NCBI GenBank assembly: GCA_013153715.1
Contig: JAADDW010000013.1
Location: forward strand, 28,765 to 92,764
Direction of reading: 5' to 3'
DNA: 64,000 nt
Source: Campylobacterota bacterium
GTDB lineage: Bacteria; Campylobacterota; Campylobacteria; Campylobacterales; Nitratiruptoraceae
Shown here: positions 7,916-63,395 of the stretch, in pieces
Numbering within the stretch: position 1 is the first letter of the stretch
Layout of the letters: each line of letters begins with the position of its first letter
Program-made: the position numbers and the translations under genes
Notes under the pieces: model-generated
Told to the model about the DNA's origin: nothing
Seen by the model: only the letters and a program-made list of their open reading frames with translations
Database searches by the model: none

Positions 7916-9622
7916 TCACTTTTTGGCCAATTCTACAATATAATCCTTAACATGCCCCATCTCTACCTCCTCCCGATGGAGATCCCTCCGTCGGACCACC
8001 TCGACCTTCCCCTCCTTGAGCCCCCTCCCGACAATGATGGCGTAGGGAAAACCGATGAGCTCAAAATCCCTGATCTTGACGCCGAAACGGTCGGGGCGGT
8101 CATCGAGAATCACCTCAACCTGGGCCTGGAGGAGCTCCCTGTAGAGCTCCTCTGCAAAGAGCCTCTGGCCCTCCTCTTTCATATTGGAGACAACAATATC
8201 GACGGTGTAGGGGGCAATCTCCTGGGGCCAGATCATCCCTCTCTCATCGTGGTTCTGTTCGATGGCCGCCGCTATGAGCCGGCTCACACCGATACCGTAG
8301 GTCCCCATCACAAAGGGGCGGGCCTTCCCATTCTCATCGAGGAAGACGGCCCCCATGGCTTCGCTATATCGGGTCCCCAGCTGGAAGATGTGGCCCACCT
8401 CGATCCCCTTGGTGATCTTCAGAGGGGCCCCACAGTGGGGACAGCCGTCTCCCTCCCGAACCTCCGCAATATCACAGAAGAGGCTCTCATCGAAGCGGCT
8501 CAGATCGGCACCGATGAGGTGGTAGTCCTCCCTATTCCCTCCGCAGATGACCCCCCGAGCCCCCTGGAGGTCCCTGTCCAGAACGATACGGCAGTTCTGG
8601 TCGAAGGGGGCGATGAAACCGGGGACAATACCTGCCTCCCTCAACTCTCCATCACCCACATCTCGGAGCTCATTGGCACCTACAGCGTTGAGGGCCTTCA
8701 CCTCCTGGAGCTCATCGCTCCCCCGGAGGAAGAAGAGGACAATCTCCTCCCTGTCGTCGAAGACCGCCTTTTTGGCCACCGCCTTGACAAAGTAGTAGGG
8801 GTGGACCTTGAAGAATTTGGAGAGCTCCTCAATGGAGGTGAGGTTGGGGGTGTAGAAGGGTTCAAAGTTACTGAATTCCGGAGCCTCTTGGGGGGGAGTC
8901 GGCGCCCTCCTGGTGGCGGCCTCCACATTGGCGGCATAGGAACAGCCGGTACAGAGGGCTATATCGTCCTCTCCGCTCTCGGCCAGAACCATAAACTCCT
9001 TACTGGCACTCCCTCCAATGGCCCCCACATCGGCCTCGACAACCCGGAACTCCAGACCGATCCGCTCCACTATCCTCCGGTAGGTCTCCTCCATGAGCCG
9101 GTACTCCCTCTCCATATCCTCATAACTGCTGTGGAAGGAGTAGCCATCTTTCATAACAAATTCTCGGGCCCTCAGAAGTCCAAATCGGGGCCTCGCCTCA
9201 TCTCGGAATTTGAGACCTATCTGGTAGAGGTTGATGGGGAGCTGTTTGTAACTGGTTATCCTCCCCCGGACCAGATTGACCATCATCTCCTCATGGGTCG
9301 GGCCCAGGAGAAAGCAGTTCTCCTTCCGATCTGTGAAGCGGAGGAGCTCCTTGCCATACTTCCCTAACCGTCCACTCTCCTCCCAGAGATCGCAGGGGGT
9401 GACGAAGCCCAGCTGAACCTCAATGGCCCCAGCCCGATCCAGCTCCTCCTTCACAATGGAGCGGATCTTCTCCAGGACAATCTTCCCCAGGGGGAGGAAG
9501 TTGTAGATCCCACTGGCCACCTGCTGAATGAACCCCCCCTGAACCAGATATTTATGGCTTGGGAGAACAGCATCCTTGGGAGGCTCCTTCAGTGTATGGA
9601 TAAATGTCCCGCTAAACCTCAC
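7916..9622 (-). CDS. proS: Proline--tRNA ligase (568 aa from GTG 9622)
   Basis: Class II ProRS sequence ([18 protein letters not shown]). I prefer GTG 9622 because TAAGGAG sits 5 nt upstream. The track start 9628 lies inside that Shine-Dalgarno sequence. Confidence 0.93.
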
Positions 9623-56292: not shown

Positions 56293-56928
56293 TTACCCCT
56301 CCAAGGGGAGGAACTCCCCTTCACTCTCGTCGAAGTAGAGGAGTTGGCCACTCTCGATTTTGAGATACCAGCCGTGGAGGAAGAGCTCTTGGGCCTCCAC
56401 CTTCCGCCTCACTTCGGGATAGGTGAGGAGATTTTCCAACTGGAAGAGGACGGAGATCTTCTCCGTCGTTCTCAGGAGGAGCTCCCTATCTCCACTCCCC
56501 ACCTTCTGGAGGGCCGCCTCCTTGGCTTTCTGGCCTAGCTGGAGCCACCTTCTGGTGTGGATCAGACTCTCATCTTCCGGAAGCTCCTTGTAGAGGCTCT
56601 CACAGGCGCCACAGTGGCTGTGGCCACAGACAATAATATCCCGCACCTGGAGGACACTTACGGCATACTCGATGGCGGCGGCGGCCGCATGGTAGTCGTC
56701 GTCTGGCTGGAAAGGGGGGACAAAGTTACCAATATCCCTGAAGATGAAGAGGTCACCGGGAGCCGCATCTGTAATGAGATTGGGGACAACCCGGGAATCA
56801 CTGCATCCGATGAAGAGGGTCTTGGGACTCTGTCCCTTTCGGGCCAGGTCGAGAAAGAGCTCTTCATGGTCTCCCAGACGGTACTCTCTGAATCTCTTAT
56901 ACCCTTGGATGAGTCCCTTAACTTCCAT
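56293..56928 (-). CDS. can: Beta-class carbonic anhydrase
   Basis: Zn-ligand motifs FIGCSDSRV and VCGHSHCGAC. 211 aa. Confidence 0.9.
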   Translation of the reverse strand: MEVKGLIQGYKRFREYRLGDHEELFLDLARKGQSPKTLFIGCSDSRVVPNLITDAAPGDLFIFRDIGNFVPPFQPDDDYHAAAAAIEYAVSVLQVRDIIVCGHSHCGACESLYKELPEDESLIHTRRWLQLGQKAKEAALQKVGSGDRELLLRTTEKISVLFQLENLLTYPEVRRKVEAQELFLHGWYLKIESGQLLYFDESEGEFLPLEG

Positions 56929-56949
56929 ACTCTATCCTTATATTGATTA

Positions 56950-56958
56950 TGTTACAAT
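56950..56958 (+). promoter_or_regulatory. Putative extended -10 promoter (TGTTACAAT) for ppk
   Basis: TGTTACAAT lies 63 nt upstream of ATG 57021, with AAAGGGA as RBS. Confidence 0.4.
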
Positions 56959-57020
56959 CCATTTAATTCTACCACAGAGAGGGTGGAAAGTTCTCTGAAA
57001 CCTTCTTAAAAAGGGATATA

Positions 57021-59114
57021 ATGGACCTGAAAGATCCAAAACTCTACATTAATCGGGAACTCTCTTGGCTCCGCTTCAACACCCGTGTCCTGGAAGAGGC
57101 CCAGGATAGGACCAATCCCCTCCTGGAGAGGTTGAAATTCATAGCCATCTACGGAACCAATTTAGATGAGTTCTATATGATTCGGGTGGCGGGATTGAAG
57201 AAGCTCTTCAAATATGGAATTCGGGTGACCGGTCCGGACAAAATGACCCCCTTGGAACAGCTCCAGGCCATCAGAGAGTATCTCCACAGAGAGAAGAAGA
57301 GCCTGGAGAAGACCTTTTTCGAGATCATAGAGGCCCTCAAAAAGGAGGGACTCTGGCTCAAGAACTACCAGGAGCTCGACGGTCCCTCCAAAGAGAGGAT
57401 CAACAACTATTTTTATACCAATCTCTACCCTGTCATTCTCCCCATTGCCGTCGATGCCACCCACCCCTTTCCCCACCTCAATAATCTCTCCTTCGCCCTG
57501 GTTCTGAAACTCCACGATCCCCAAGAGGGAGAGATCAAATATGGATTGGTTCGAATCCCCCGGGTCCTCCCCCGATTTATAGAGCTGGAGAATACCTACA
57601 TTCCGATTGAATCTGTTGTCCAGGCCCATCTGGAATCCCTCTTTCCGGGCTATAGGGTTCTGGCTTCCGCCCCCTTTCGGGTTACCCGAAATGCAGATAT
57701 AGAGATTGAAGAGGAAGAGGCCGACGACTTCATGGAACTCCTGGAAGAGGGGTTAAAACTGAGGCGGAAAGGGGAGATCGTACGGCTGGAGATCGGGGCC
57801 GGTGCGGAGGAGGATCTTGTAGAGTTTCTCAACGACCATCTCAAAATCCATAGGGAAGATATATACTACTATAATATTCCCCTCAATCTCGGCTCCCTCT
57901 GGGAGATCGTCTCAAACAAGAACTTCCCCCACCTCCTCTTTGAGCCCTACACCCCCAAAATCCTCCCCCCTCTGGACAGTAACGAACCCATTCTGACCAT
58001 CCTCGAACATGAAGAGGATATTATGCTCTACCACCCCTACGAGAGTTTCGATCCTGTGGTCCGCTTCATCAAAGAGGCCAGCAAAGACCCGGATGTTCTC
58101 GCTATCCGTATGACCCTCTACCGGGTCGGAAAGAACTCTCCCATTGTGAAGGCCCTCATTGAGGCCGCCGAAAGTGGGAAGCAGGTGACAGCTATGGTGG
58201 AGCTGAAAGCCCGCTTCGACGAGGAGAACAACCTCATCTGGGCCAGGAGGCTGGAACAGGCGGGGGCCCATGTGATCTTCGGTATCCCGGGCTTCAAGGT
58301 CCATGCCAAGATAGCCCAGGTCATCAAGAGGGATGGGGAGAGATTGAAGCAATATACCCATCTGGCCACAGGGAATTACAACCCCTCCACCGCCCGGATC
58401 TATACCGATGTGAGCTACTTCACGACGAGGAAGGAGATTACCGACGACTCGACCCGCTTCTTCCACTATCTGACAGGCTTTTCCAAGAGGGGGAAACTCC
58501 AGACCCTCTACATGTCTCCCACCCAGATAAAGCCCAAACTCCTCTCCCTCATCGAGAAGGAGCGGGAGCGGGGAGAGGAGGGGCATATCATCGCCAAAAT
58601 GAACGCCCTGGTCGATCAAGATGTGATAGAGGCCCTCTACAGAGCCTCCATGGCCGGTGTGAAGATAGACCTCATCGTCAGGGGAATCTGCTGTCTCCGT
58701 CCCGGCATAGAGGGGGTCAGCGAGACCATACGGGTCATCTCCATCGTCGGGAAGTATCTGGAGCATGCACGGATATTCTACTTCAGACATGGAGAGCCCC
58801 AGCTCTTCATCTCCAGTGCCGACTGGATGCCCCGAAACTTGGAGAGGCGGATCGAGCTGATGACCCCTATCTTCGATAGAGAGATAGCAGACAGACTCCA
58901 GGAGATTCTCAATATCCAACTGAAGGATAATGTGAAGGCGAGGGAGCTCCAACCGGACGGGGAGTACCGCAAACTCCACCCTCCCAAGGGAAAACCTCCC
59001 ATCAACTCCCAGCTCCTGATGGAGGAATATACTAAAATCCTCTATAATACCCACAGAAAGAATACAACATCCAGGGCCAAGAAATTGGCCAAGCGGTTAC
59101 TGAAGGAGAGCTGA
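57021..59114 (+). CDS. ppk: Polyphosphate kinase 1
   Basis: N-terminus [19 protein letters not shown], with two PLD-like HKD-type domains (KVHAKIAQV). 697 aa. Confidence 0.95.
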
Positions 59115-59650
59115 TGCTTCTGAGATACAGAGAGTGGTTTCCCCTCTGCGGCCCCGATGTCTGGATCGCCCCCACAGCCACCGTCATCGGTGATGTGAAG
59201 ATCGGGAAGGAGAGCTCCATCTGGTTCGGAGCAGTTGTACGGGGAGATGTCCACTCCATCACAATTGGGGAGCGGACCAATATCCAAGACCTGACGATGA
59301 TCCATGTGACCCACTATACCAAAGAGGATAGGAGCGACGGCTTCCCCACAGTTATTGGAAACGATGTGACGGTGGGCCATAGGGTGATGCTCCATGGCTG
59401 TACCATTGAAGATGGCTCTCTCATCGGAATGAATGCTACAATCCTGGACGGAGCTGTAATCGGGAGGGAGTCCATTGTTGGAGCGGGGGCCCTGGTGACT
59501 GGGGGAAAGGTCTTCCCTCCCCGCTCCCTCATTCTCGGCTCCCCAGCCCGGGTGGTTCGGGAGTTGAGGGATGAAGAGGTAGAGGAGCTCTACGCCTCTG
59601 CCCGACGGTATGTGGAGTATATGAGGGAGTATATCGACCACATCAGGTGA
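59114..59650 (+). CDS. Gamma-carbonic-anhydrase-like hexapeptide-repeat protein (YrdA/PaaY family)
   Basis: Left-handed beta-helix repeats (VIGDVKIGKESSIWFGAVVRGD, VGHRVMLHGCTIEDGSLIGMNATI). TGATG overlap with ppk. Confidence 0.85.
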   Translation: MLLRYREWFPLCGPDVWIAPTATVIGDVKIGKESSIWFGAVVRGDVHSITIGERTNIQDLTMIHVTHYTKEDRSDGFPTVIGNDVTVGHRVMLHGCTIEDGSLIGMNATILDGAVIGRESIVGAGALVTGGKVFPPRSLILGSPARVVRELRDEEVEELYASARRYVEYMREYIDHIR

Positions 59651-59670
59651 AACTGAAGGGAAACTGGAAG

Positions 59671-59689
59671 AAATTTATCAGATAAATTT
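59671..59689. promoter_or_regulatory. Perfect 19-bp palindrome AAATTTATC-A-GATAAATTT upstream of sqr
   Basis: The 9-bp arms are perfectly complementary. It lies 21 nt after the preceding stop and 123 nt before the sqr ATG. Confidence 0.4.
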
Positions 59690-59755
59690 ATAAGACCTAT
59701 CACTGGCTATTATAAGTTTAAGATTTGGTTCCATTTTTCCTTTACATTATCTTTT

Positions 59756-59800
59756 TTTAAAGATTGGAGGGATATAATACAGTGTTACTAAATCTTTAAA
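59756..59800. promoter_or_regulatory. 10-bp inverted repeat TTTAAAGATT-N25-AATCTTTAAA bracketing a TATAAT box upstream of sqr
   Basis: The arms at 59756..59765 and 59791..59800 are perfectly complementary, and TATAAT lies at 59773..59778. The right arm touches the RBS (AAAGGGG). A third related copy, TTTAAGATTTGG, lies at 59717..59728. Confidence 0.4.
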
Positions 59801-59811
59801 GGGGTTTAAGA

Positions 59812-61284
59812 ATGGCTAGAATCGTTGTGCTGGGTGCGGGAGTATCGGGACATACCGCTGCCACTTTCGCCAAACATTGGCTCGGAGATAAACATGAGGT
59901 GGTAGTTGTCTCTCCCAATAGCAAGTGGAACTGGATTCCCTCCAATATCTGGGTCGGTGTTGGGGAGATGAGTCCAGAAGATGTGGTCTTCGAATTGGCT
60001 CCTGTCTATAAGAAGGCCGGTATCGACTTCCGGCAAGCGAAAGCGATCTCTATCCACCCGGAAGGGAAAAAAGAGAGTGACAAACCCTTTGTAACAATCG
60101 AATATACAGACCCCAACAGGGCAGGGGAGACCGAGGAGATCGAGTATGACTACCTCATCAATGCGACCGGTCCCAAGCTGAAATTTGAGGCCACTCCGGG
60201 ACTGGGACCCGATGCCAACTCCCTCTCTGTCTGTACCTACGGCCACGCCGCCGAAGCCAATACCCACTTCCAAGAGGCCATTGAACGGATGAAGAAGGGG
60301 GAGAAACAGAAGTTCCTCATCGGAACGGGTCACGGTATGTGTACCTGCCAAGGGGCGGCCTTCGAGTATATCTTCAACATCGAACATGAGCTCAACAGGG
60401 CCGGAGTTCGGGACAAAGCGGAGATCAAGTGGATCTCCAATGAGCAGTTCCTCGGAGATTTCGGGGTTGCAGGACTCCACATCAAGTGGGGAGGCCACAT
60501 TGTGAGCTCCAAAGTTCTCGCCGAGTCCCTCTTTGCCGAGCGGGGGGTTGACTGGATTACAGGGGCCCATGTGAAAGAGGTCCAGAAGGGAAAACTGGCC
60601 TACGAGCTCCTCGACGGAACAGAAGGAGAGGAAGAGTTCGATTTCGCCATGCTCATTCCACCCTTCAGCGGTGTCGGACTGAAGGCCTACGACAAAGAGG
60701 GGAACGACATTACAGATAAGCTCTTCGCTCCCAACGGCTTCATGAAGGTCGATGCAGACTACACCCAGAAACCCTTTGAAGAGTGGAAGGCCAGCGACTG
60801 GCCCAAGTACTACCAGAACCCGGATTACAAGAATATCTTCGCCGTCGGTATCGCATTTGCGCCACCCCACCCCATCTCAAAACCTGCCAAATCGGTCAAC
60901 GGAACACCGATTACACCGGCACCTCCAAGGACAGGTATGCCCTCTGGAATTATTGGAAAGACGGTGGCCCAGACCATCACAGAGGTTATCCAAGGGAAGT
61001 ACAGCCTCGATGAGGTGACAGAGAAGGGACACCACGCCTCTATGGCCGAAATGGGAGCGGCCTGTGTTGCCTCTACAGGAAAGGGTATCTTTGACGGAAG
61101 TGCGGTAGCCCTCACAGTCTATCCTGTTGTCCCCGACTACGATCGCTATCCAGGAACGGGACGGGATCCAGAGTACACCTTCGGTGAGATCGGTCTGGCA
61201 GGCCACTGGATCAAACATATTCTCCACCACATGTTCATGTGGAAGGCCCAGCTCAAACCTGGCTGGACAATTATCCCCGAATAA
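59812..61284 (+). CDS. sqr: Sulfide:quinone oxidoreductase-family flavoprotein
   Basis: N-terminal FAD fold IVVLGAGVSGHTAA. SQR-type redox cysteines occur in GMCTCQGAAFEY and MGAACVAS. The C-terminus is amphipathic. 490 aa. I did not assign an SQR type. Confidence 0.82.
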   Translation: MARIVVLGAGVSGHTAATFAKHWLGDKHEVVVVSPNSKWNWIPSNIWVGVGEMSPEDVVFELAPVYKKAGIDFRQAKAISIHPEGKKESDKPFVTIEYTDPNRAGETEEIEYDYLINATGPKLKFEATPGLGPDANSLSVCTYGHAAEANTHFQEAIERMKKGEKQKFLIGTGHGMCTCQGAAFEYIFNIEHELNRAGVRDKAEIKWISNEQFLGDFGVAGLHIKWGGHIVSSKVLAESLFAERGVDWITGAHVKEVQKGKLAYELLDGTEGEEEFDFAMLIPPFSGVGLKAYDKEGNDITDKLFAPNGFMKVDADYTQKPFEEWKASDWPKYYQNPDYKNIFAVGIAFAPPHPISKPAKSVNGTPITPAPPRTGMPSGIIGKTVAQTITEVIQGKYSLDEVTEKGHHASMAEMGAACVASTGKGIFDGSAVALTVYPVVPDYDRYPGTGRDPEYTFGEIGLAGHWIKHILHHMFMWKAQLKPGWTIIPE

Positions 61285-61302: not shown

Positions 61303-61482
61303 ATGGCAAAAGATTACCAGGAGATACAGAAGAATATCACCCCCTACGATAATAAGACCTACGGCACAATGATCCCCGGACCCTTCCAGCGGTTCTTGAG
61401 GAAGTGTATTATCTGGCAGTTCATCAGATTTATCGTTATCAATCTAAAGATGCTCATGGTGGTGGCCAAATCCCACCACTGA
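61303..61482 (+). CDS. Small membrane protein (59 aa), below the ORF-track cutoff
   Basis: An ATG sits 5 nt after GAAGGAG. Sequence MAKDYQEIQKNITPYDNKTYGTMIPGPFQRFLRKCIIWQFIRFIVINLKMLMVVAKSHH. One hydrophobic helix. 18 nt after the sqr stop and 37 nt before the next gene. Confidence 0.6.
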   Translation: MAKDYQEIQKNITPYDNKTYGTMIPGPFQRFLRKCIIWQFIRFIVINLKMLMVVAKSHH

Positions 61483-61519: not shown

Positions 61520-62317
61520 ATGGCAGAGATACTCACCTACCCGGACCAGAGGCTCCTCCAGATCTCTGGGTTGGTCCGTGATTTCAAAGATCCTCAACTC
61601 GATGAGATCATCGACGAACTCAAGAGGAGCGCCCTGGAACGGAACCTCAAGGGGCTGGCCGCCATCCAGATCGGCATCCCTCTCCGTATCATTCTCTTCC
61701 GTAGAGAGGGCGGAGAGTGGGAGGTAATGATCAATCCGGCCATCTACGGCAAGGAGGGGGAGTACTTCCCCTCCACCGAGAGGGATGAGAGTCTCCCCGG
61801 GGCCGAGGTCACAGTCCGCCGCTACCCCACAATCAAGGTGGCCTACGAAGATCGGGAGGGGAATACCCGCTACTACACAGCCCATGGGGAGGAGTCGGTC
61901 TGGCTCCAGAGGAAGATCGATATGGTCTTCGGAGGCTATCTCTTCGATAAGCTGGATAAAAAGGGGCAGAGGGAGTTTTTCAGGAAGTACGGGAGCTATG
62001 GAGATACCTGCCCCACCTACTTTGTCAAAGATAGAATTCTGACCGGACTCCGCCTCTTTCTGATCCTCCATCTCCTCACCCTCCTGGCTGGATGGGTGGT
62101 AGAGGGGGCCCGGAGAGTCATGGAGTGGACATTCCCCCTCCTCGGGGTGGAGATCCTCTGGCTCCTCATCTATGTCTTCTACGCCCGGTACGAGACCAAG
62201 AAGTACAAGAACTGTACCTCCTGCCAGAACGCCAACATTCTAGGGACAGCCGGCCTCTATCTGGCCTCTATCCTCCTCATCTTCCTCATCTCCCTCCTTC
62301 TGAAAAGAGTTCTATAG
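61520..62317 (+). CDS. Peptide-deformylase-fold protein lacking catalytic residues, fused to a C-terminal 3-TM domain
   Basis: PDF motif 1 is retained (KGLAAIQIG). Motif 2 EGCLS is replaced by ERDES, and motif 3 QHExDH by QRKIDM. The C-terminal ~90 aa have three TM helices and a CTSC motif. RBS GAAGGGGAAGAG. Confidence 0.8.
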   Translation: MAEILTYPDQRLLQISGLVRDFKDPQLDEIIDELKRSALERNLKGLAAIQIGIPLRIILFRREGGEWEVMINPAIYGKEGEYFPSTERDESLPGAEVTVRRYPTIKVAYEDREGNTRYYTAHGEESVWLQRKIDMVFGGYLFDKLDKKGQREFFRKYGSYGDTCPTYFVKDRILTGLRLFLILHLLTLLAGWVVEGARRVMEWTFPLLGVEILWLLIYVFYARYETKKYKNCTSCQNANILGTAGLYLASILLIFLISLLLKRVL

Positions 62318-63395
62318 TCCGTTTGAAGACTCTGCAGAGCCCCTCCACCTCCCCCCTGGTGGTCCTCTCATTGGGGGCGTGGATCCTGTCATTGATGACT
62401 CCGAACTCTATGGTCTTGACCCCGTGGGCCGCAAAGAAGCGGGCGTCGCTGGTCCCTCCGGCTGTAGAGTGGGAGGGCCTTATGGAGGTGACCTCCTCAA
62501 TGGCCCGATCTATGGTCCGGACCACCTTTGAATTGGGATCTGTCAAAAAGGGCCTCGCCGACTCTGTCAGCTTGAGGGAGTAGTTCATCCCGTCAAAGTA
62601 GCTGTGGACGAAGGCCTCGACATCTTCCATAGTGGTCTTCCGATTGTTCCGTACATTGAACATCATCTTCAATGTGCCCGGAGTCACATTGGTCACCTCC
62701 ATCCCCGCCCGAATGTCGGTAATGACAAATTTACTGGGGGCGAAGAACTCATCTCCCTCGTCCAGATCGACCCCCGCCATCTGGGGGAGAACCTGGGCAA
62801 CCTTGTGGATCGGATTGACCGCCTTTTCGGGATAGGCCGCATGGCCTTGGACACCGATCTTCTCTATCACTCCATTGATGGATCCCCTCCTCCCGATCTT
62901 TATGGTATCGCCGAAGGTACTCTCGCAGGTCGGCTCCGCCACAATGGCGTAGTCCGGAATGAGTCCGAGGGGTTCCAACTCCTCCAGGACATAGCGGGTC
63001 CCCCACCTGGCCTCTCCCTCCTCATCGCTGGTAATGAGGAGAGAGAGGGTTCCATTGAAGGATTCAACCTCCTTGAGGGCTTGGAGAGAGGCGGCCACTC
63101 CGCTCTTCATATCCTGAGCCCCCCGTCCGTAGATATACTCTCCCTCCCACCGAGGCTGGAAGGGGTCACTCTCCCACCCCTCCCCAGGGGGGACTACATC
63201 GATATGGCCTCCAAAGCAGAGATGGTCCCCCTCCCCAAACTTTCTATAGAGAAAGAGGTTTCTCACCCCCTCCTTCTCAAACCAGAGGGCCTCATAGTCT
63301 GGAAGGTACTCCCTAATAAAATTCAGACTCCCACACTCCCTAGGTGTGATGGTGGGGAAGCGGAGGAGCTCTTCAAAGAGTTCAATGACCTCCAT
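62286..63395 (-). CDS. dapE: Succinyl-diaminopimelate desuccinylase (M20 peptidase)
   Basis: LCFGGHIDVVPPG, ITSDEEG and the dimerisation-domain layout typical of DapE. 369 aa. Confidence 0.9.
   Translation of the reverse strand: MEVIELFEELLRFPTITPRECGSLNFIREYLPDYEALWFEKEGVRNLFLYRKFGEGDHLCFGGHIDVVPPGEGWESDPFQPRWEGEYIYGRGAQDMKSGVAASLQALKEVESFNGTLSLLITSDEEGEARWGTRYVLEELEPLGLIPDYAIVAEPTCESTFGDTIKIGRRGSINGVIEKIGVQGHAAYPEKAVNPIHKVAQVLPQMAGVDLDEGDEFFAPSKFVITDIRAGMEVTNVTPGTLKMMFNVRNNRKTTMEDVEAFVHSYFDGMNYSLKLTESARPFLTDPNSKVVRTIDRAIEEVTSIRPSHSTAGGTSDARFFAAHGVKTIEFGVINDRIHAPNERTTRGEVEGLCRVFKRTIELFSEGGR

What the first reader, a model, noticed from the sequence alone, without database searches (positions are those of the whole stretch)
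61520..62317. Catalytically dead peptide-deformylase fold fused to a 3-TM CxxC membrane domain, downstream of sqr
Seen in the sequence:
- Residues 1 to ~165 align by eye to peptide deformylase along the whole fold (ILTYPDQRL; KGLAAIQIG for GxGLAAxQ; INP).
- All three metal ligands and the catalytic Glu are replaced. EGCLS becomes ERDES (Cys to Asp), and QHExDH becomes QRKIDM (His to Arg, Glu to Lys, His to Met).
- The C-terminal ~90 aa add three hydrophobic helices. A K-rich loop carrying CTSC is predicted cytoplasmic, and a TCP motif lies just before TM1.
- The gene follows sqr and a 59-aa membrane ORF on the same strand with short gaps, and it has its own strong RBS.

Established knowledge: Cys90, His132, His136 and Glu133 (E. 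coli numbering) are essential for PDF activity.

Inference: this is a pseudo-enzyme re-purposed as a membrane-tethered peptide- or N-terminus-binding module. Given the CxxC motif and the SQR context, it might alternatively handle sulfane sulfur. I know of no described function for this architecture.
Basis: partly seen in the sequence, partly recalled or inferred. Interest (0 to 1): 0.62.

Follow-up and report, generated by a model that had tools for sequence, protein, structure and literature searches.

The report
Dead deformylase membrane protein beside SQR
A membrane-anchored protein with a peptide-deformylase fold that has lost every catalytic residue is the usual third gene of a conserved sulfide-oxidation operon in vent-type Campylobacterota, is mislabelled "peptide deformylase" in databases, and has an unknown function that is probably accessory to the sulfide:quinone reductase.

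Summary
ORF 61520-62317 (+, 265 aa) has a complete peptide-deformylase (PDF) fold (Pfam E=6e-32; Foldseek TM 0.8-0.88). All three metal ligands and the catalytic Glu are replaced. The fold is fused to a three-helix membrane domain with an invariant CxxC.

It is neither an artefact nor a decaying paralog.
- All 67 complete orthologs lack both His ligands and the Glu, and all keep the CxxC.
- dN/dS is about 0.08 in both halves.
- The membrane domain is found only in this fusion: 48 clusters among 1.84 billion representatives, with no solved relative by sequence or fold.

The gene is the third of a conserved module: a ~490-aa SQR (probably type IV), a 53-59-aa micro-protein, then PDF-TM. The module occurs in Nitratiruptor, Nitrosophilus, Hydrogenimonas, Sulfurovum, Sulfurimonas-like and Arcobacteraceae genomes.
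- 71 of 72 micro-protein loci have the SQR upstream.
- 54 of 62 have PDF-TM downstream.
- None of 74 canonical def loci has either gene.

The core pair is SQR plus micro-protein. PDF-TM is a frequent accessory that has been lost several times.

Function is inferred only. My best guess is a non-catalytic accessory subunit whose cytoplasmic-face cysteine site and remodelled cleft work with the SQR. No description was found in the literature searched. Verdict: new variant of a known kind, interest about 0.6.

The parts
59651..59811 (+). AT-rich intergenic region upstream of sqr; presumed promoter region of the module
   Evidence: 161-nt gap after the preceding gene. It holds one sigma-70-like match, TTTAAA-16-TAGAAT, at 59795-59822, but the number of matches is no more than in shuffles. 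Inferred only.
59812..61284 (+). Sulfide:quinone reductase, 490 aa, no signal or TAT motif; probably type IV (SqrD)
   Evidence: Pyr_redox_2 domain. The best solved relative is A. aeolicus type I SQR 3hyv at E=1e-38, with the Cys-containing segments aligned. More than 70% identical across Campylobacterota. The type IV assignment is inferred from PMC4584964 and from the length argument against type VI.
61303..61482 (+). Conserved 59-aa micro-protein with one hydrophobic helix (about residues 36-54) carrying conserved polar residues; constant partner of this SQR
   Evidence: Alignment A4. 1,267 clusters, all named 'hypothetical', no Pfam domain. SQR lies directly upstream in 71 of 72 loci. Invariant M23, P25, R33 and K56-S57-H58; C35 in 96%. 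Kyte-Doolittle maximum 1.88.
61520..62317 (+). PDF-TM: catalytically dead peptide-deformylase fold fused to a three-helix membrane domain (265 aa)
61520..61990 (+). PDF-like domain (residues 1-157), including the basic C-terminal helix 147-157
   Evidence: Pfam match to residues 1-149. AlphaFold secondary structure and Foldseek matches to PDFs.
61778..61792 (+). ERDES (residues 87-91), in place of motif 2 EGCLS; the metal-ligand Cys is Asp
   Evidence: alignment. Family statistics: Glu 72/72 at position 87; Thr, Ser or Asp at position 89.
61907..61924 (+). QRKIDM (residues 130-135), in place of motif 3 QHExDH
   Evidence: alignment. Arg131 in 63 of 67 members; Lys132 in most; Tyr, Phe or Met at 135.
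62003..62017 (+). DTCPT (residues 162-166): conserved Cys-Pro just before TM1
   Evidence: Cys-Pro in 62 of 67 members, absent in the Sulfurovum clade. Low-pLDDT linker in the model.
62036..62095 (+). TM1 (about residues 173-192)
   Evidence: Hydropathy; AlphaFold helix 169-190.
62129..62191 (+). TM2 (about residues 204-224)
   Evidence: Hydropathy; AlphaFold helix 195-228.
62192..62236 (+). Juxtamembrane turn ETKKYKNCTSCQNAN (residues 225-239) with invariant E225 and C232-x-x-C235; the most conserved segment of the protein; predicted cytoplasmic
   Evidence: CxxC in 67 of 67 members and E225 in 67 of 67. Segment conservation 0.72 against 0.43-0.59 elsewhere, and charge bias.
62237..62305 (+). 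TM3 (about residues 240-262)
   Evidence: Hydropathy; AlphaFold helix 230-264.

Best explanation
PDF-TM is a non-catalytic, membrane-anchored accessory protein of a Campylobacterota sulfide:quinone reductase module (SQR, micro-protein, PDF-TM).

**Shown**
- It keeps the whole peptide-deformylase fold but has no metal ligands and no catalytic Glu.
- It is fused to a three-helix membrane domain found nowhere else.
- Both halves are under strong purifying selection.
- The gene sits directly behind the SQR and micro-protein genes in nearly every genome that has it.

**Inferred**
- Topology is N-in. The PDF-like domain, the Cys-Pro motif before TM1 and the invariant CxxC at the start of TM3 would then all lie at the cytoplasmic membrane surface, where a signal-less monotopic SQR would sit.
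- The cysteine site does thiol chemistry linked to SQR turnover. It could accept or pass on sulfane sulfur, or cycle as a redox-active dithiol, possibly with a bound metal.
- The remodelled former active-site cleft, with Arg-Lys in place of His-Glu, serves as a binding pocket for a partner peptide or an anionic sulfur species.
- It modulates or services the SQR. It is not required for catalysis, because some lineages have lost it.
For: - **Fold and dead site:**. All 67 orthologs lack His/Glu/His, Arg131 is present in 63 of 67, and CxxC in 67 of 67. NCBIfam deformylase models score 54-58 bits against cut-offs of 104-190.
- **Selection:** dN/dS is about 0.08 in each half over 16 pairs.
- **Exclusivity of the membrane domain:** 48 clusters among 1.84 billion representatives, all of them this fusion or truncated calls of it.
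- **Linkage:** 14 of the 15 context loci fetched by look-up or genome scan have SQR + micro-protein + PDF-like gene in the same order although the flanks differ; the exception is L011, and L009's PDF-like gene is truncated. Of micro-protein loci, 54 of 62 have PDF-TM directly downstream and 71 of 72 have SQR upstream. None of 74 canonical def loci has either gene.
- **Topology:** the pre-TM1 segment and the TM2-TM3 turn are net basic, and the TM1-TM2 loop is net acidic. The CxxC lies at the N-terminus of a predicted helix.
- **SQR side:** the SQR has no signal or TAT motif (sequence; PMC4584964 reports TAT motifs only on type II).
- **Dispensability:** 8 of 62 loci lack PDF-TM, and these are scattered among SQR lineages.
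Against: - No experiment or expression data bears on function. No RNA run holds this stretch.
- The side of the membrane on which type IV SQR acts is unknown. The related type I enzymes are generally regarded as periplasmic (from memory). If that holds here, a cytoplasmic Cys site could not touch the SQR product.
- The third Cys (Cys-Pro) is missing in the Sulfurovum clade.
- No similarity to any known sulfur-carrier or thiol-oxidoreductase family was found.
- Arg-Lys, together with Asp-Glu or Tyr at the former ligand positions, may simply be a salt-bridge or H-bond network that replaces the metal structurally rather than forming a ligand site.
- From memory of Han & Perner 2016 (PMID 26833414; paper not held), a Sulfurimonas type IV SQR expressed alone is active. 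The accessory role is therefore not catalytic necessity.
Confidence: 0.4

Rival explanations
1. Biogenesis or assembly factor. The dead PDF domain keeps the fold's ability to bind an extended peptide, and perhaps the ribosome through its basic C-terminal helix. It would hold the nascent or mature N-terminus, or another exposed segment such as the invariant T-M-x-P of the micro-protein, of SQR or the micro-protein at the membrane. That would aid membrane insertion, cofactor loading or export of a signal-less SQR.
For: - PDFs bind peptides as an added beta-strand through backbone H-bonds to motifs I and II (PMC5071857), and these strands are retained.
- LAAxQ, INP, Glu87 and Arg101 are kept.
- The C-terminal helix resembles that of Campylobacterota def proteins (KLSxxxxKxFEK).
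- The micro-protein has invariant M23 and P25 in its predicted cytoplasmic N-terminal part.
- The gene is dispensable in some lineages, as an assembly helper might be.
Against: - The invariant CxxC and E225, the best-conserved part of the protein, are unexplained by this reading.
- The cleft is heavily remodelled: motif-1 Gly->Leu, Ile->Asp/Glu/Asn, motif-2 Gly lost.
- The micro-protein motifs and the SQR termini are equally conserved where PDF-TM is absent.
- No binding data exist.
Confidence: 0.2
2. Purely structural membrane anchor or scaffold. The three cysteines, possibly across a dimer, bind a structural metal (Zn or Fe-S) that clamps the PDF-like domain to the helix bundle. The protein only tethers or organises SQR complexes in the membrane.
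For: - The Cys-bearing segments are the lowest-confidence parts of otherwise confident models, as is often seen for metal sites modelled without the metal.
- CxxC plus a third Cys lie at the same membrane face.
- Pseudo-metalloenzymes commonly act as scaffolds (PMC11266112 abstract).
Against: - The Cys-Pro cysteine is absent in one clade.
- The conserved Arg-Lys pocket would have no role.
- The SQR has its own conserved amphipathic C-terminal anchor.
Confidence: 0.15
3. Sensor. The CxxC site reports sulfide, sulfane-sulfur or quinone-pool state at the membrane and passes the signal to a regulator, for example the hybrid histidine kinase that often follows the module.
For: A PAS-HisKA-HATPase-REC-Hpt hybrid kinase lies directly downstream in 25 loci. 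In the Sulfurimonas-like locus L170 an OmpR-type regulator follows it.
Against: - The kinase is absent in the window, in the Nitratiruptor, Nitrosophilus and Hydrogenimonas loci, and in the Arcobacteraceae locus (L171), where rpsO follows PDF-TM and only an unrelated, shorter PAS kinase lies further downstream on the opposite strand.
- It also follows the micro-protein directly where PDF-TM is missing (L135, L151). The association therefore looks like clade-specific synteny with the SQR, not with PDF-TM.
Confidence: 0.1
4. It is still a peptide deformylase, or another hydrolase, that uses a non-canonical active site. This is what current database names imply.
For: Full PDF fold and the Pfam match. 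NCBI and UniRef name the orthologs 'peptide deformylase'.
Against: - All three metal ligands and the general base are replaced in 67 of 67 members, with basic residues at the His and Glu positions.
- Scores fall far below the NCBIfam equivalog cut-offs.
- Ordinary def genes with intact EGCLS/QHExDH exist in the same genera (Sulfurovum and relatives).
Confidence: 0.02

Closest known systems
Bacterial type 1 peptide deformylase (Def; e.g. E. coli 1bs4/1xen, H. pylori 2ew5)
   Same: The same alpha+beta fold over about 157 residues (Foldseek target TM 0.8-0.88, 26-31% identity). It retains LAAxQ, INP, the motif-2 Glu, the motif-3 Gln and Asp, and a basic C-terminal helix.
   Different: - No Cys/His/His metal site and no catalytic Glu. 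Arg-Lys occupy the His-Glu positions, and the GxG of motif 1 and the Gly of motif 2 are lost.
- About 100 extra residues form a membrane domain.
- It is encoded in an sqr operon instead of the usual def context.
- It scores below all NCBIfam deformylase cut-offs.
Catalytically impaired def paralogs and 'type 3' PDF-like proteins (second def-like genes of some Gram-positive bacteria; archaeal and trypanosomatid PDF-like proteins). Recalled from memory, not checked here.
   Same: PDF-fold proteins with substitutions in the three motifs, coexisting with an active Def, with no assigned function.
   Different: As far as I recall, those are soluble stand-alone proteins with partial motif changes. 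This family replaces all four key residues with a new conserved pattern (QRK[IV]D[YFM]), carries a dedicated membrane domain with CxxC, and has a fixed genomic partner.
Pseudo-metallopeptidases as scaffolds and regulators (review PMC11266112; iRhom-type pseudoproteases)
   Same: A hydrolase fold is kept under selection after loss of catalysis, and new domains are added. The expected role is binding or regulation of a partner enzyme.
   Different: Different fold families. No PDF-fold example is mentioned in that review: the term 'peptide deformylase' occurs 0 times. The partner here would be a flavoprotein oxidoreductase, not a protease.
Membrane thiol oxidoreductases with a CxxC at a helix start next to quinone (DsbB, VKOR)
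   Same: CxxC at the N-terminal end of a transmembrane helix at the membrane surface, with conserved Tyr, Asn and Gln nearby, encoded next to a quinone-reducing enzyme. This is a resemblance recalled from memory.
   Different: Three helices instead of four. The predicted face is cytoplasmic, not periplasmic. No second Cys pair in a loop. No sequence or fold match: 0 hits, and nothing better than E=3 (all generic helix bundles).
Type I/IV sulfide:quinone reductases (A. aeolicus SQR 3hyv; Chlorobaculum CT0117 SqrD)
   Same: The upstream gene is a close relative of these enzymes (E=1e-38 to 3hyv, Cys-containing segments aligned). It belongs to the highly conserved epsilonproteobacterial type IV group described in PMC4584964.
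   Different: These enzymes are described as single-subunit monotopic proteins. No accessory micro-protein or PDF-like partner was found described in the literature searched.

Membership tests
Peptide deformylase (EC 3.5.1.88; Pfam PF01327, TIGR00079) | PDF alpha+beta fold | tested here: met
   Pfam E=6.2e-32 over residues 1-149. Foldseek target TM 0.8-0.88 and rmsd about 2.2 A to many solved PDFs.
Peptide deformylase (EC 3.5.1.88; Pfam PF01327, TIGR00079) | Motif 1 G-x-G-L-A-A-x-Q | tested here: inconclusive
   L-K-G-L-A-A-I-Q. The LAAxQ part is kept (Gln50 in 69 of 72). The first Gly is Leu in most members, and the hydrophobic x is Asp, Glu, Asn or Lys.
Peptide deformylase (EC 3.5.1.88; Pfam PF01327, TIGR00079) | Motif 2 E-G-C-L-S with the metal-ligand Cys | tested here: not met
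   ERDES in the window. Cys is absent in 65 of 67 family members. The two members that have a Cys there lack both His ligands.
Peptide deformylase (EC 3.5.1.88; Pfam PF01327, TIGR00079) | Motif 3 H-E-x-x-H (two His ligands and the catalytic Glu) | tested here: not met
   QRKIDM in the window. None of 67 members has His at either position or Glu at the base position.
Peptide deformylase (EC 3.5.1.88; Pfam PF01327, TIGR00079) | Score above the curated equivalog cut-offs | tested here: not met
   NF009484 scores 57.6 bits against a cut-off of 190. TIGR00079 scores 54.0 against 103.95.
Peptide deformylase (EC 3.5.1.88; Pfam PF01327, TIGR00079) | Deformylase activity; complementation of def | not testable with these tools
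   Needs an enzyme assay or genetics.
DsbB / VKOR-type quinone-coupled membrane thiol oxidoreductases | Four-helix bundle with periplasm-facing CxxC and recognisable sequence or fold similarity | tested here: not met
   Three helices. Predicted cytoplasmic CxxC. No Pfam or NCBIfam hit for residues 150-265. No PDB sequence hit at E<=10. No Foldseek hit better than E=3.
Known sulfur-carrier or sulfurtransferase domains (rhodanese, TusA, DsrE) | Domain signature detectable by profile | tested here: not met
   Only PF01327 is found on the protein at E<=1. NCBIfam adds nothing relevant. The Cys-Pro resemblance to the TusA CPxP motif is two residues only, and recalled from memory.
Type IV sulfide:quinone reductase (SqrD) - for the upstream gene | SQR flavoprotein with the conserved cysteines, clustering with type I, no TAT signal, highly conserved in Epsilonproteobacteria | tested here: inconclusive
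   Consistent, and type VI is excluded by length and C-terminal architecture. No phylogeny with reference type IV sequences was made.
SQR + micro-protein + PDF-TM module (defined here) | Same-strand order sqr, 53-59-aa ORF, PDF-like gene with QRK-type motif 3 and C-terminal CxxC domain | tested here: met
   Window coordinates. The same order is seen in L001, L003, L004, L007, L008, L010, L012-L015, L170 and L171, and in 54 metagenome loci.

The most novel reading that the evidence does not exclude
The micro-protein and PDF-TM are previously unrecognised subunits or dedicated helpers of the dominant (type IV) sulfide:quinone reductase of vent and sediment Campylobacterota. PDF-TM would be the first pseudo-deformylase with a defined job. 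One version: it receives sulfane sulfur or redox equivalents from the SQR at the cytoplasmic membrane face through its CxxC site. Another: it guides the signal-less SQR into or across the membrane. Either would change the picture of SQR as a self-sufficient single-subunit enzyme. It could also bear on the old question of how signal-less SQRs reach their site of action.
Probability: 0.3. Interest if true: 0.8.

Novelty: new variant of a known kind. Interest (0 to 1): 0.62.

Why it matters
- **Ecology and enzymology.** Campylobacterota such as Sulfurimonas, Sulfurovum and Nitratiruptor are main sulfide oxidisers at vents, seeps and redoxclines, and type IV SQR is their most conserved sulfide-oxidising enzyme. 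Two conserved, unannotated or mis-annotated genes in the same operon suggest the enzyme does not work alone in vivo.
- **Annotation.** Genome-based metabolic reconstructions currently count PDF-TM as a second 'peptide deformylase'. That is almost certainly wrong and could mislead anyone inferring deformylase gene content from annotations.
- **Protein evolution.** This is a clean case of a metallo-hydrolase fold kept for at least five families' worth of divergence after complete loss of its metal site, with a new conserved residue pattern and a new membrane domain.

Tried and rejected
1. **Frameshift or fusion artefact: rejected.** The same 255-283-aa fusion occurs on more than 60 independent contigs.
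2. **Decaying def paralog: rejected.** dN/dS is about 0.08 in both halves, and new motifs are invariant.
3. **Stand-alone membrane domain: rejected.** All shorter hits begin inside the PDF domain and are truncated calls; three odd ones look chimeric.
4. **DsbB/VKOR or any known fold for the membrane domain: no support**.
5. **An inter-protein Cys site between micro-protein Cys35 and PDF-TM: rejected.** Cys35 is kept in all five loci without PDF-TM and is Asn in two loci with PDF-TM.
6. **SQR C-terminal tail (...PGWTxIPE) as a PDF-TM-specific ligand: not discriminating.** It is equally invariant where PDF-TM is absent.
7. **A universal fourth gene: none.** A hybrid kinase follows in 25 loci and split YeeE/YedE-like transporters in at least 5.
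8. **Type VI SQR: rejected.** Type VI enzymes are short, with one C-terminal helix.
9. **Co-transcription and expression: failed.** Only contig-level data were available, with cross-mapping from other taxa, and no RNA run holds the stretch. The isolate locus could not be submitted.
The narrower scan was swamped by canonical PDFs, so its taxon list is incomplete.
Only genus-level coexistence is shown.
12. **Han & Perner 2016: could not be read**.
Full report
**Observation.** The ORF at 61520-62317 (+) encodes 265 aa. It follows a 490-aa flavoprotein gene (59812-61284) and a 59-aa ORF (61303-61482) on the same strand, with gaps of 18 and 37 nt. Each gene has a Shine-Dalgarno-like purine run. Its 3' end overlaps tail-to-tail by 32 nt with a convergent M20-peptidase gene, so it is the last gene of the unit.

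Pfam PF01327 (Pep_deformylase) matches residues 1-149 at E=6.2e-32. HMMER alignments to solved deformylases put ERDES on EGCLS and QRKIDM on QHExDH. All NCBIfam deformylase models score far below their curated cut-offs (57.6 vs 190; 54.0 vs 103.95).

An AlphaFold model built on 23 family members (mean pLDDT 87.5) has the PDF fold in residues 1-157 followed by three long helices at 169-190, 195-228 and 230-264. Foldseek places the N-terminal part on many solved PDFs, with target TM-scores of 0.8-0.88 and rmsd about 2.2 A.

**The family.** A word-indexed search found about 45 full-length relatives. The named ones are all Nitratiruptor or Nitrosophilus and are annotated 'peptide deformylase'. Following the neighbouring genes showed that the family is much wider. 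I collected 67 complete, non-identical orthologs of 256-283 aa from genomes and metagenome contigs.

- None has His at either ligand position or Glu at the base position.
- 63 of 67 have Arg at the first His position, and most have Lys at the Glu position.
- The second His is Tyr, Phe or Met.
- The Cys is Thr, Ser or Asp in all but two, and those two also lack the His ligands.
- The pocket residues co-vary by clade: ExTAY...QRKIDY in most, ExDES...QRKIDM in the window's Nitratiruptor-like clade.
- The first Gly of motif 1 and the Gly of motif 2 are also lost, while LAAxQ, INP, Glu87, Arg101, Gln130 and Asp134 are kept.
- Nei-Gojobori dN/dS on 16 pairs of 80-94% identical orthologs is about 0.08, both for the PDF-like half and for the membrane half.

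This is a maintained pseudo-enzyme, not a decaying paralog or an assembly artefact.

**The membrane domain.** A profile of residues 146-265 was scored against 1.84 billion representative proteins. It found only 48 clusters. The full-length ones are all this fusion. The short ones begin inside the PDF domain and are therefore truncated calls. The domain has no Pfam or NCBIfam match, no PDB sequence match at E<=10, and its own model (pLDDT 82.6) has no Foldseek match better than E=3.

The best-conserved stretch of the whole protein is the turn between TM2 and TM3, Y-x-x-Y-E-x-K-K-Y-x-x-C-[TS]-x-C-Q-x-G-N. E225 and the CxxC are present in 67 of 67 members. A Cys-Pro just before TM1 is present in 62 of 67 and is missing in the Sulfurovum clade.

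Charge counts support an N-in topology: pre-TM1 and the TM2-TM3 turn are net basic, and the TM1-TM2 loop is net acidic. The PDF-like domain and all three cysteines would then lie at the cytoplasmic membrane surface. This is an inference from the positive-inside rule, not a measurement.

**Genomic context.** The order SQR (~490 aa), 53-59-aa ORF, PDF-TM is found in:
- Nitratiruptor sp. SB155-2 and Nitrosophilus kaiyonis;
- a 32%-identical metagenome relative;
- Hydrogenimonas sp. SS33 and two large MAG contigs;
- Sulfurovum and Sulfurovaceae MAGs;
- a Sulfurimonas-like contig and an Arcobacteraceae MAG.

The flanking genes differ among these loci.

In a metagenome scan seeded with the small ORF, 71 of 72 loci with upstream sequence have the SQR directly upstream, and 54 of 62 loci with at least 1 kb downstream have PDF-TM directly downstream. 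The eight exceptions carry unrelated genes there. They are scattered among SQR lineages whose nearest relatives do have PDF-TM, which indicates repeated loss.

One genome locus (L011) has PDF-TM without an SQR within 5 kb. As a control, none of 74 canonical def loci fetched in the same scan has an SQR or the small ORF nearby. Their proteins, including ones from Sulfurovum, Nitratifractor and Sulfurospirillum, are 170-190 aa with intact EGCLS and QHExDH.

The lineage therefore has an ordinary deformylase as well.

**The partners.** The upstream protein is a bona fide SQR relative. Its best solved match is the A. aeolicus type I enzyme (E=1e-38), with the Cys-containing segments aligned. It is more than 70% identical across Campylobacterota and has no signal or TAT motif.

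According to PMC4584964, Epsilonproteobacteria lack type I, type I and IV are sister groups that share the cysteines, type IV is the highly conserved one, and only type II carries TAT motifs. Type VI enzymes are short, with a single C-terminal helix (PMC9666304). I therefore call it probably type IV, without a phylogeny.

The small ORF is a real gene. It forms 1,267 clusters, all named 'hypothetical' and without a Pfam domain. M23, P25, R33 and the C-terminal K-S-H are invariant, and Cys35 is present in 96%. It has one hydrophobic helix (Kyte-Doolittle 1.88) that carries conserved Gln, Arg, Asn and Lys. It is the tighter partner of the SQR.

**Mechanism.**

*Shown:*
- a dead PDF fold;
- a unique membrane domain with an invariant CxxC;
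- purifying selection on both halves;
- fixed linkage to sqr and the micro-protein;
- dispensability in some lineages.

*Inferred:*
- N-in topology;
- physical or functional association with the SQR.

From memory of Han & Perner 2016 (PMID 26833414; not held), a Sulfurimonas type IV SQR is active when expressed alone. That fits an accessory role, not an essential one.

The explanation I favour (confidence 0.4 as a whole) is an accessory subunit. Its cytoplasmic-face cysteine site would do thiol chemistry coupled to SQR turnover, either as a sulfane-sulfur acceptor or relay or as a redox-active dithiol, possibly metal-bound. Its remodelled cleft would bind a partner segment or an anionic sulfur species.

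The main weakness is that the membrane side on which type IV SQR acts is unknown.

Rivals are:
- a biogenesis or peptide-binding factor (0.2), supported by the backbone-type peptide binding of PDFs (PMC5071857) and the retained basic C-terminal helix, but leaving the CxxC unexplained;
- a purely structural anchor with a metal-clamped Cys site (0.15);
- a sensor feeding the hybrid kinase that follows the module in 25 loci (0.1), which looks more like clade-specific synteny;
- a still-active deformylase (0.02).

The Arg-Lys pair, with Asp-Glu or Tyr opposite it, may alternatively be just a polar network that fills the former metal site.

**Comparison and novelty.**
- The protein is a structural member of the PDF superfamily but fails the catalytic membership tests.
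- It resembles known inactive def paralogs and 'type 3' PDF-like proteins (recalled from memory) in being a dead PDF. It differs by complete replacement of the site with a new conserved pattern, by a dedicated membrane domain, and by a fixed operon partner.
- The CxxC-at-helix-start geometry recalls DsbB/VKOR, but no sequence or fold relation exists.
- Literature searches combining deformylase with SQR, sulfide:quinone, Campylobacterota or pseudoenzyme terms found no description.

I rate it a new variant of a known kind, with moderate-to-high interest. The anatomy and linkage are solid and widespread in ecologically important sulfide oxidisers. The function is open.

**Limits.**
- No expression or co-transcription evidence could be obtained.

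Noticed in passing
window 61303-61482 (+); relatives in L001, L003, L004, L007-L010, L012-L015, L090-L171: The 59-aa ORF between sqr and PDF-TM belongs to a large unannotated micro-protein family: 1,267 clusters, all named 'hypothetical', no Pfam domain. M23, P25, R33 and the C-terminal K-S-H are invariant, and polar residues inside its hydrophobic helix are conserved. It follows this SQR in 71 of 72 loci, also where PDF-TM is absent, so it may be an unrecognised SQR subunit.
   Followed up: partly
L135:3747-6371; L170:6115-8400 and 8418-9167; L151:3726-5558: A hybrid sensor kinase (PAS-HisKA-HATPase-REC-Hpt) with an unassigned N-terminal region of about 160 aa lies directly downstream of the module in 25 loci. 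In L170 a convergent OmpR-type response regulator follows it. It could be a sulfide- or redox-responsive regulator of sqr. It is not present in the window.
   Followed up: partly
L104:4518-5641; L008:6538-7658; L158:340-1237: A pair of half-size Sulf_transp (YeeE/YedE-like) membrane proteins, one also matching DUF6691, follows the module in at least five loci. In L158 the pair follows the micro-protein directly.
   Followed up: partly
L009:5735-6364: In one large MAG contig the PDF-like gene is truncated to 209 aa, with TM2, the CxxC and TM3 missing, and is followed by transposase genes. The adjacent micro-protein has Asn instead of Cys35. This looks like a recent disruption.
   Followed up: partly
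L098:1219-4136: Here a full-length SQR homolog (66% identical to the window's) lies downstream of PDF-TM. It could be a second sqr copy or a rearranged module. The upstream part of the contig was not examined in detail.
   Followed up: no
L011:4992-5804: The only PDF-TM gene found without an SQR or micro-protein gene within 5 kb (Campylobacterales MAG BB8). It has CTSCK instead of CTSCQ.
   Followed up: partly
window 62286-63395 (-) versus 61520-62317 (+): The convergent M20/DapE-like peptidase gene overlaps the 3' end of PDF-TM by 32 nt, tail to tail. That leaves no room for a terminator between them, and no terminator-like site was found on the + strand.
   Followed up: no
window 56293-59650; L001:807-4156; L003:157-4152: The upstream synteny is conserved between the window and the Nitratiruptor and Nitrosophilus genomes: beta-carbonic anhydrase on the opposite strand in the relatives, then polyphosphate kinase 1, a hexapeptide-repeat protein and sqr. 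The downstream genes differ. The window's 211-aa ORF at 56293-56928 was not annotated. Window G+C is 55.4%.
   Followed up: no
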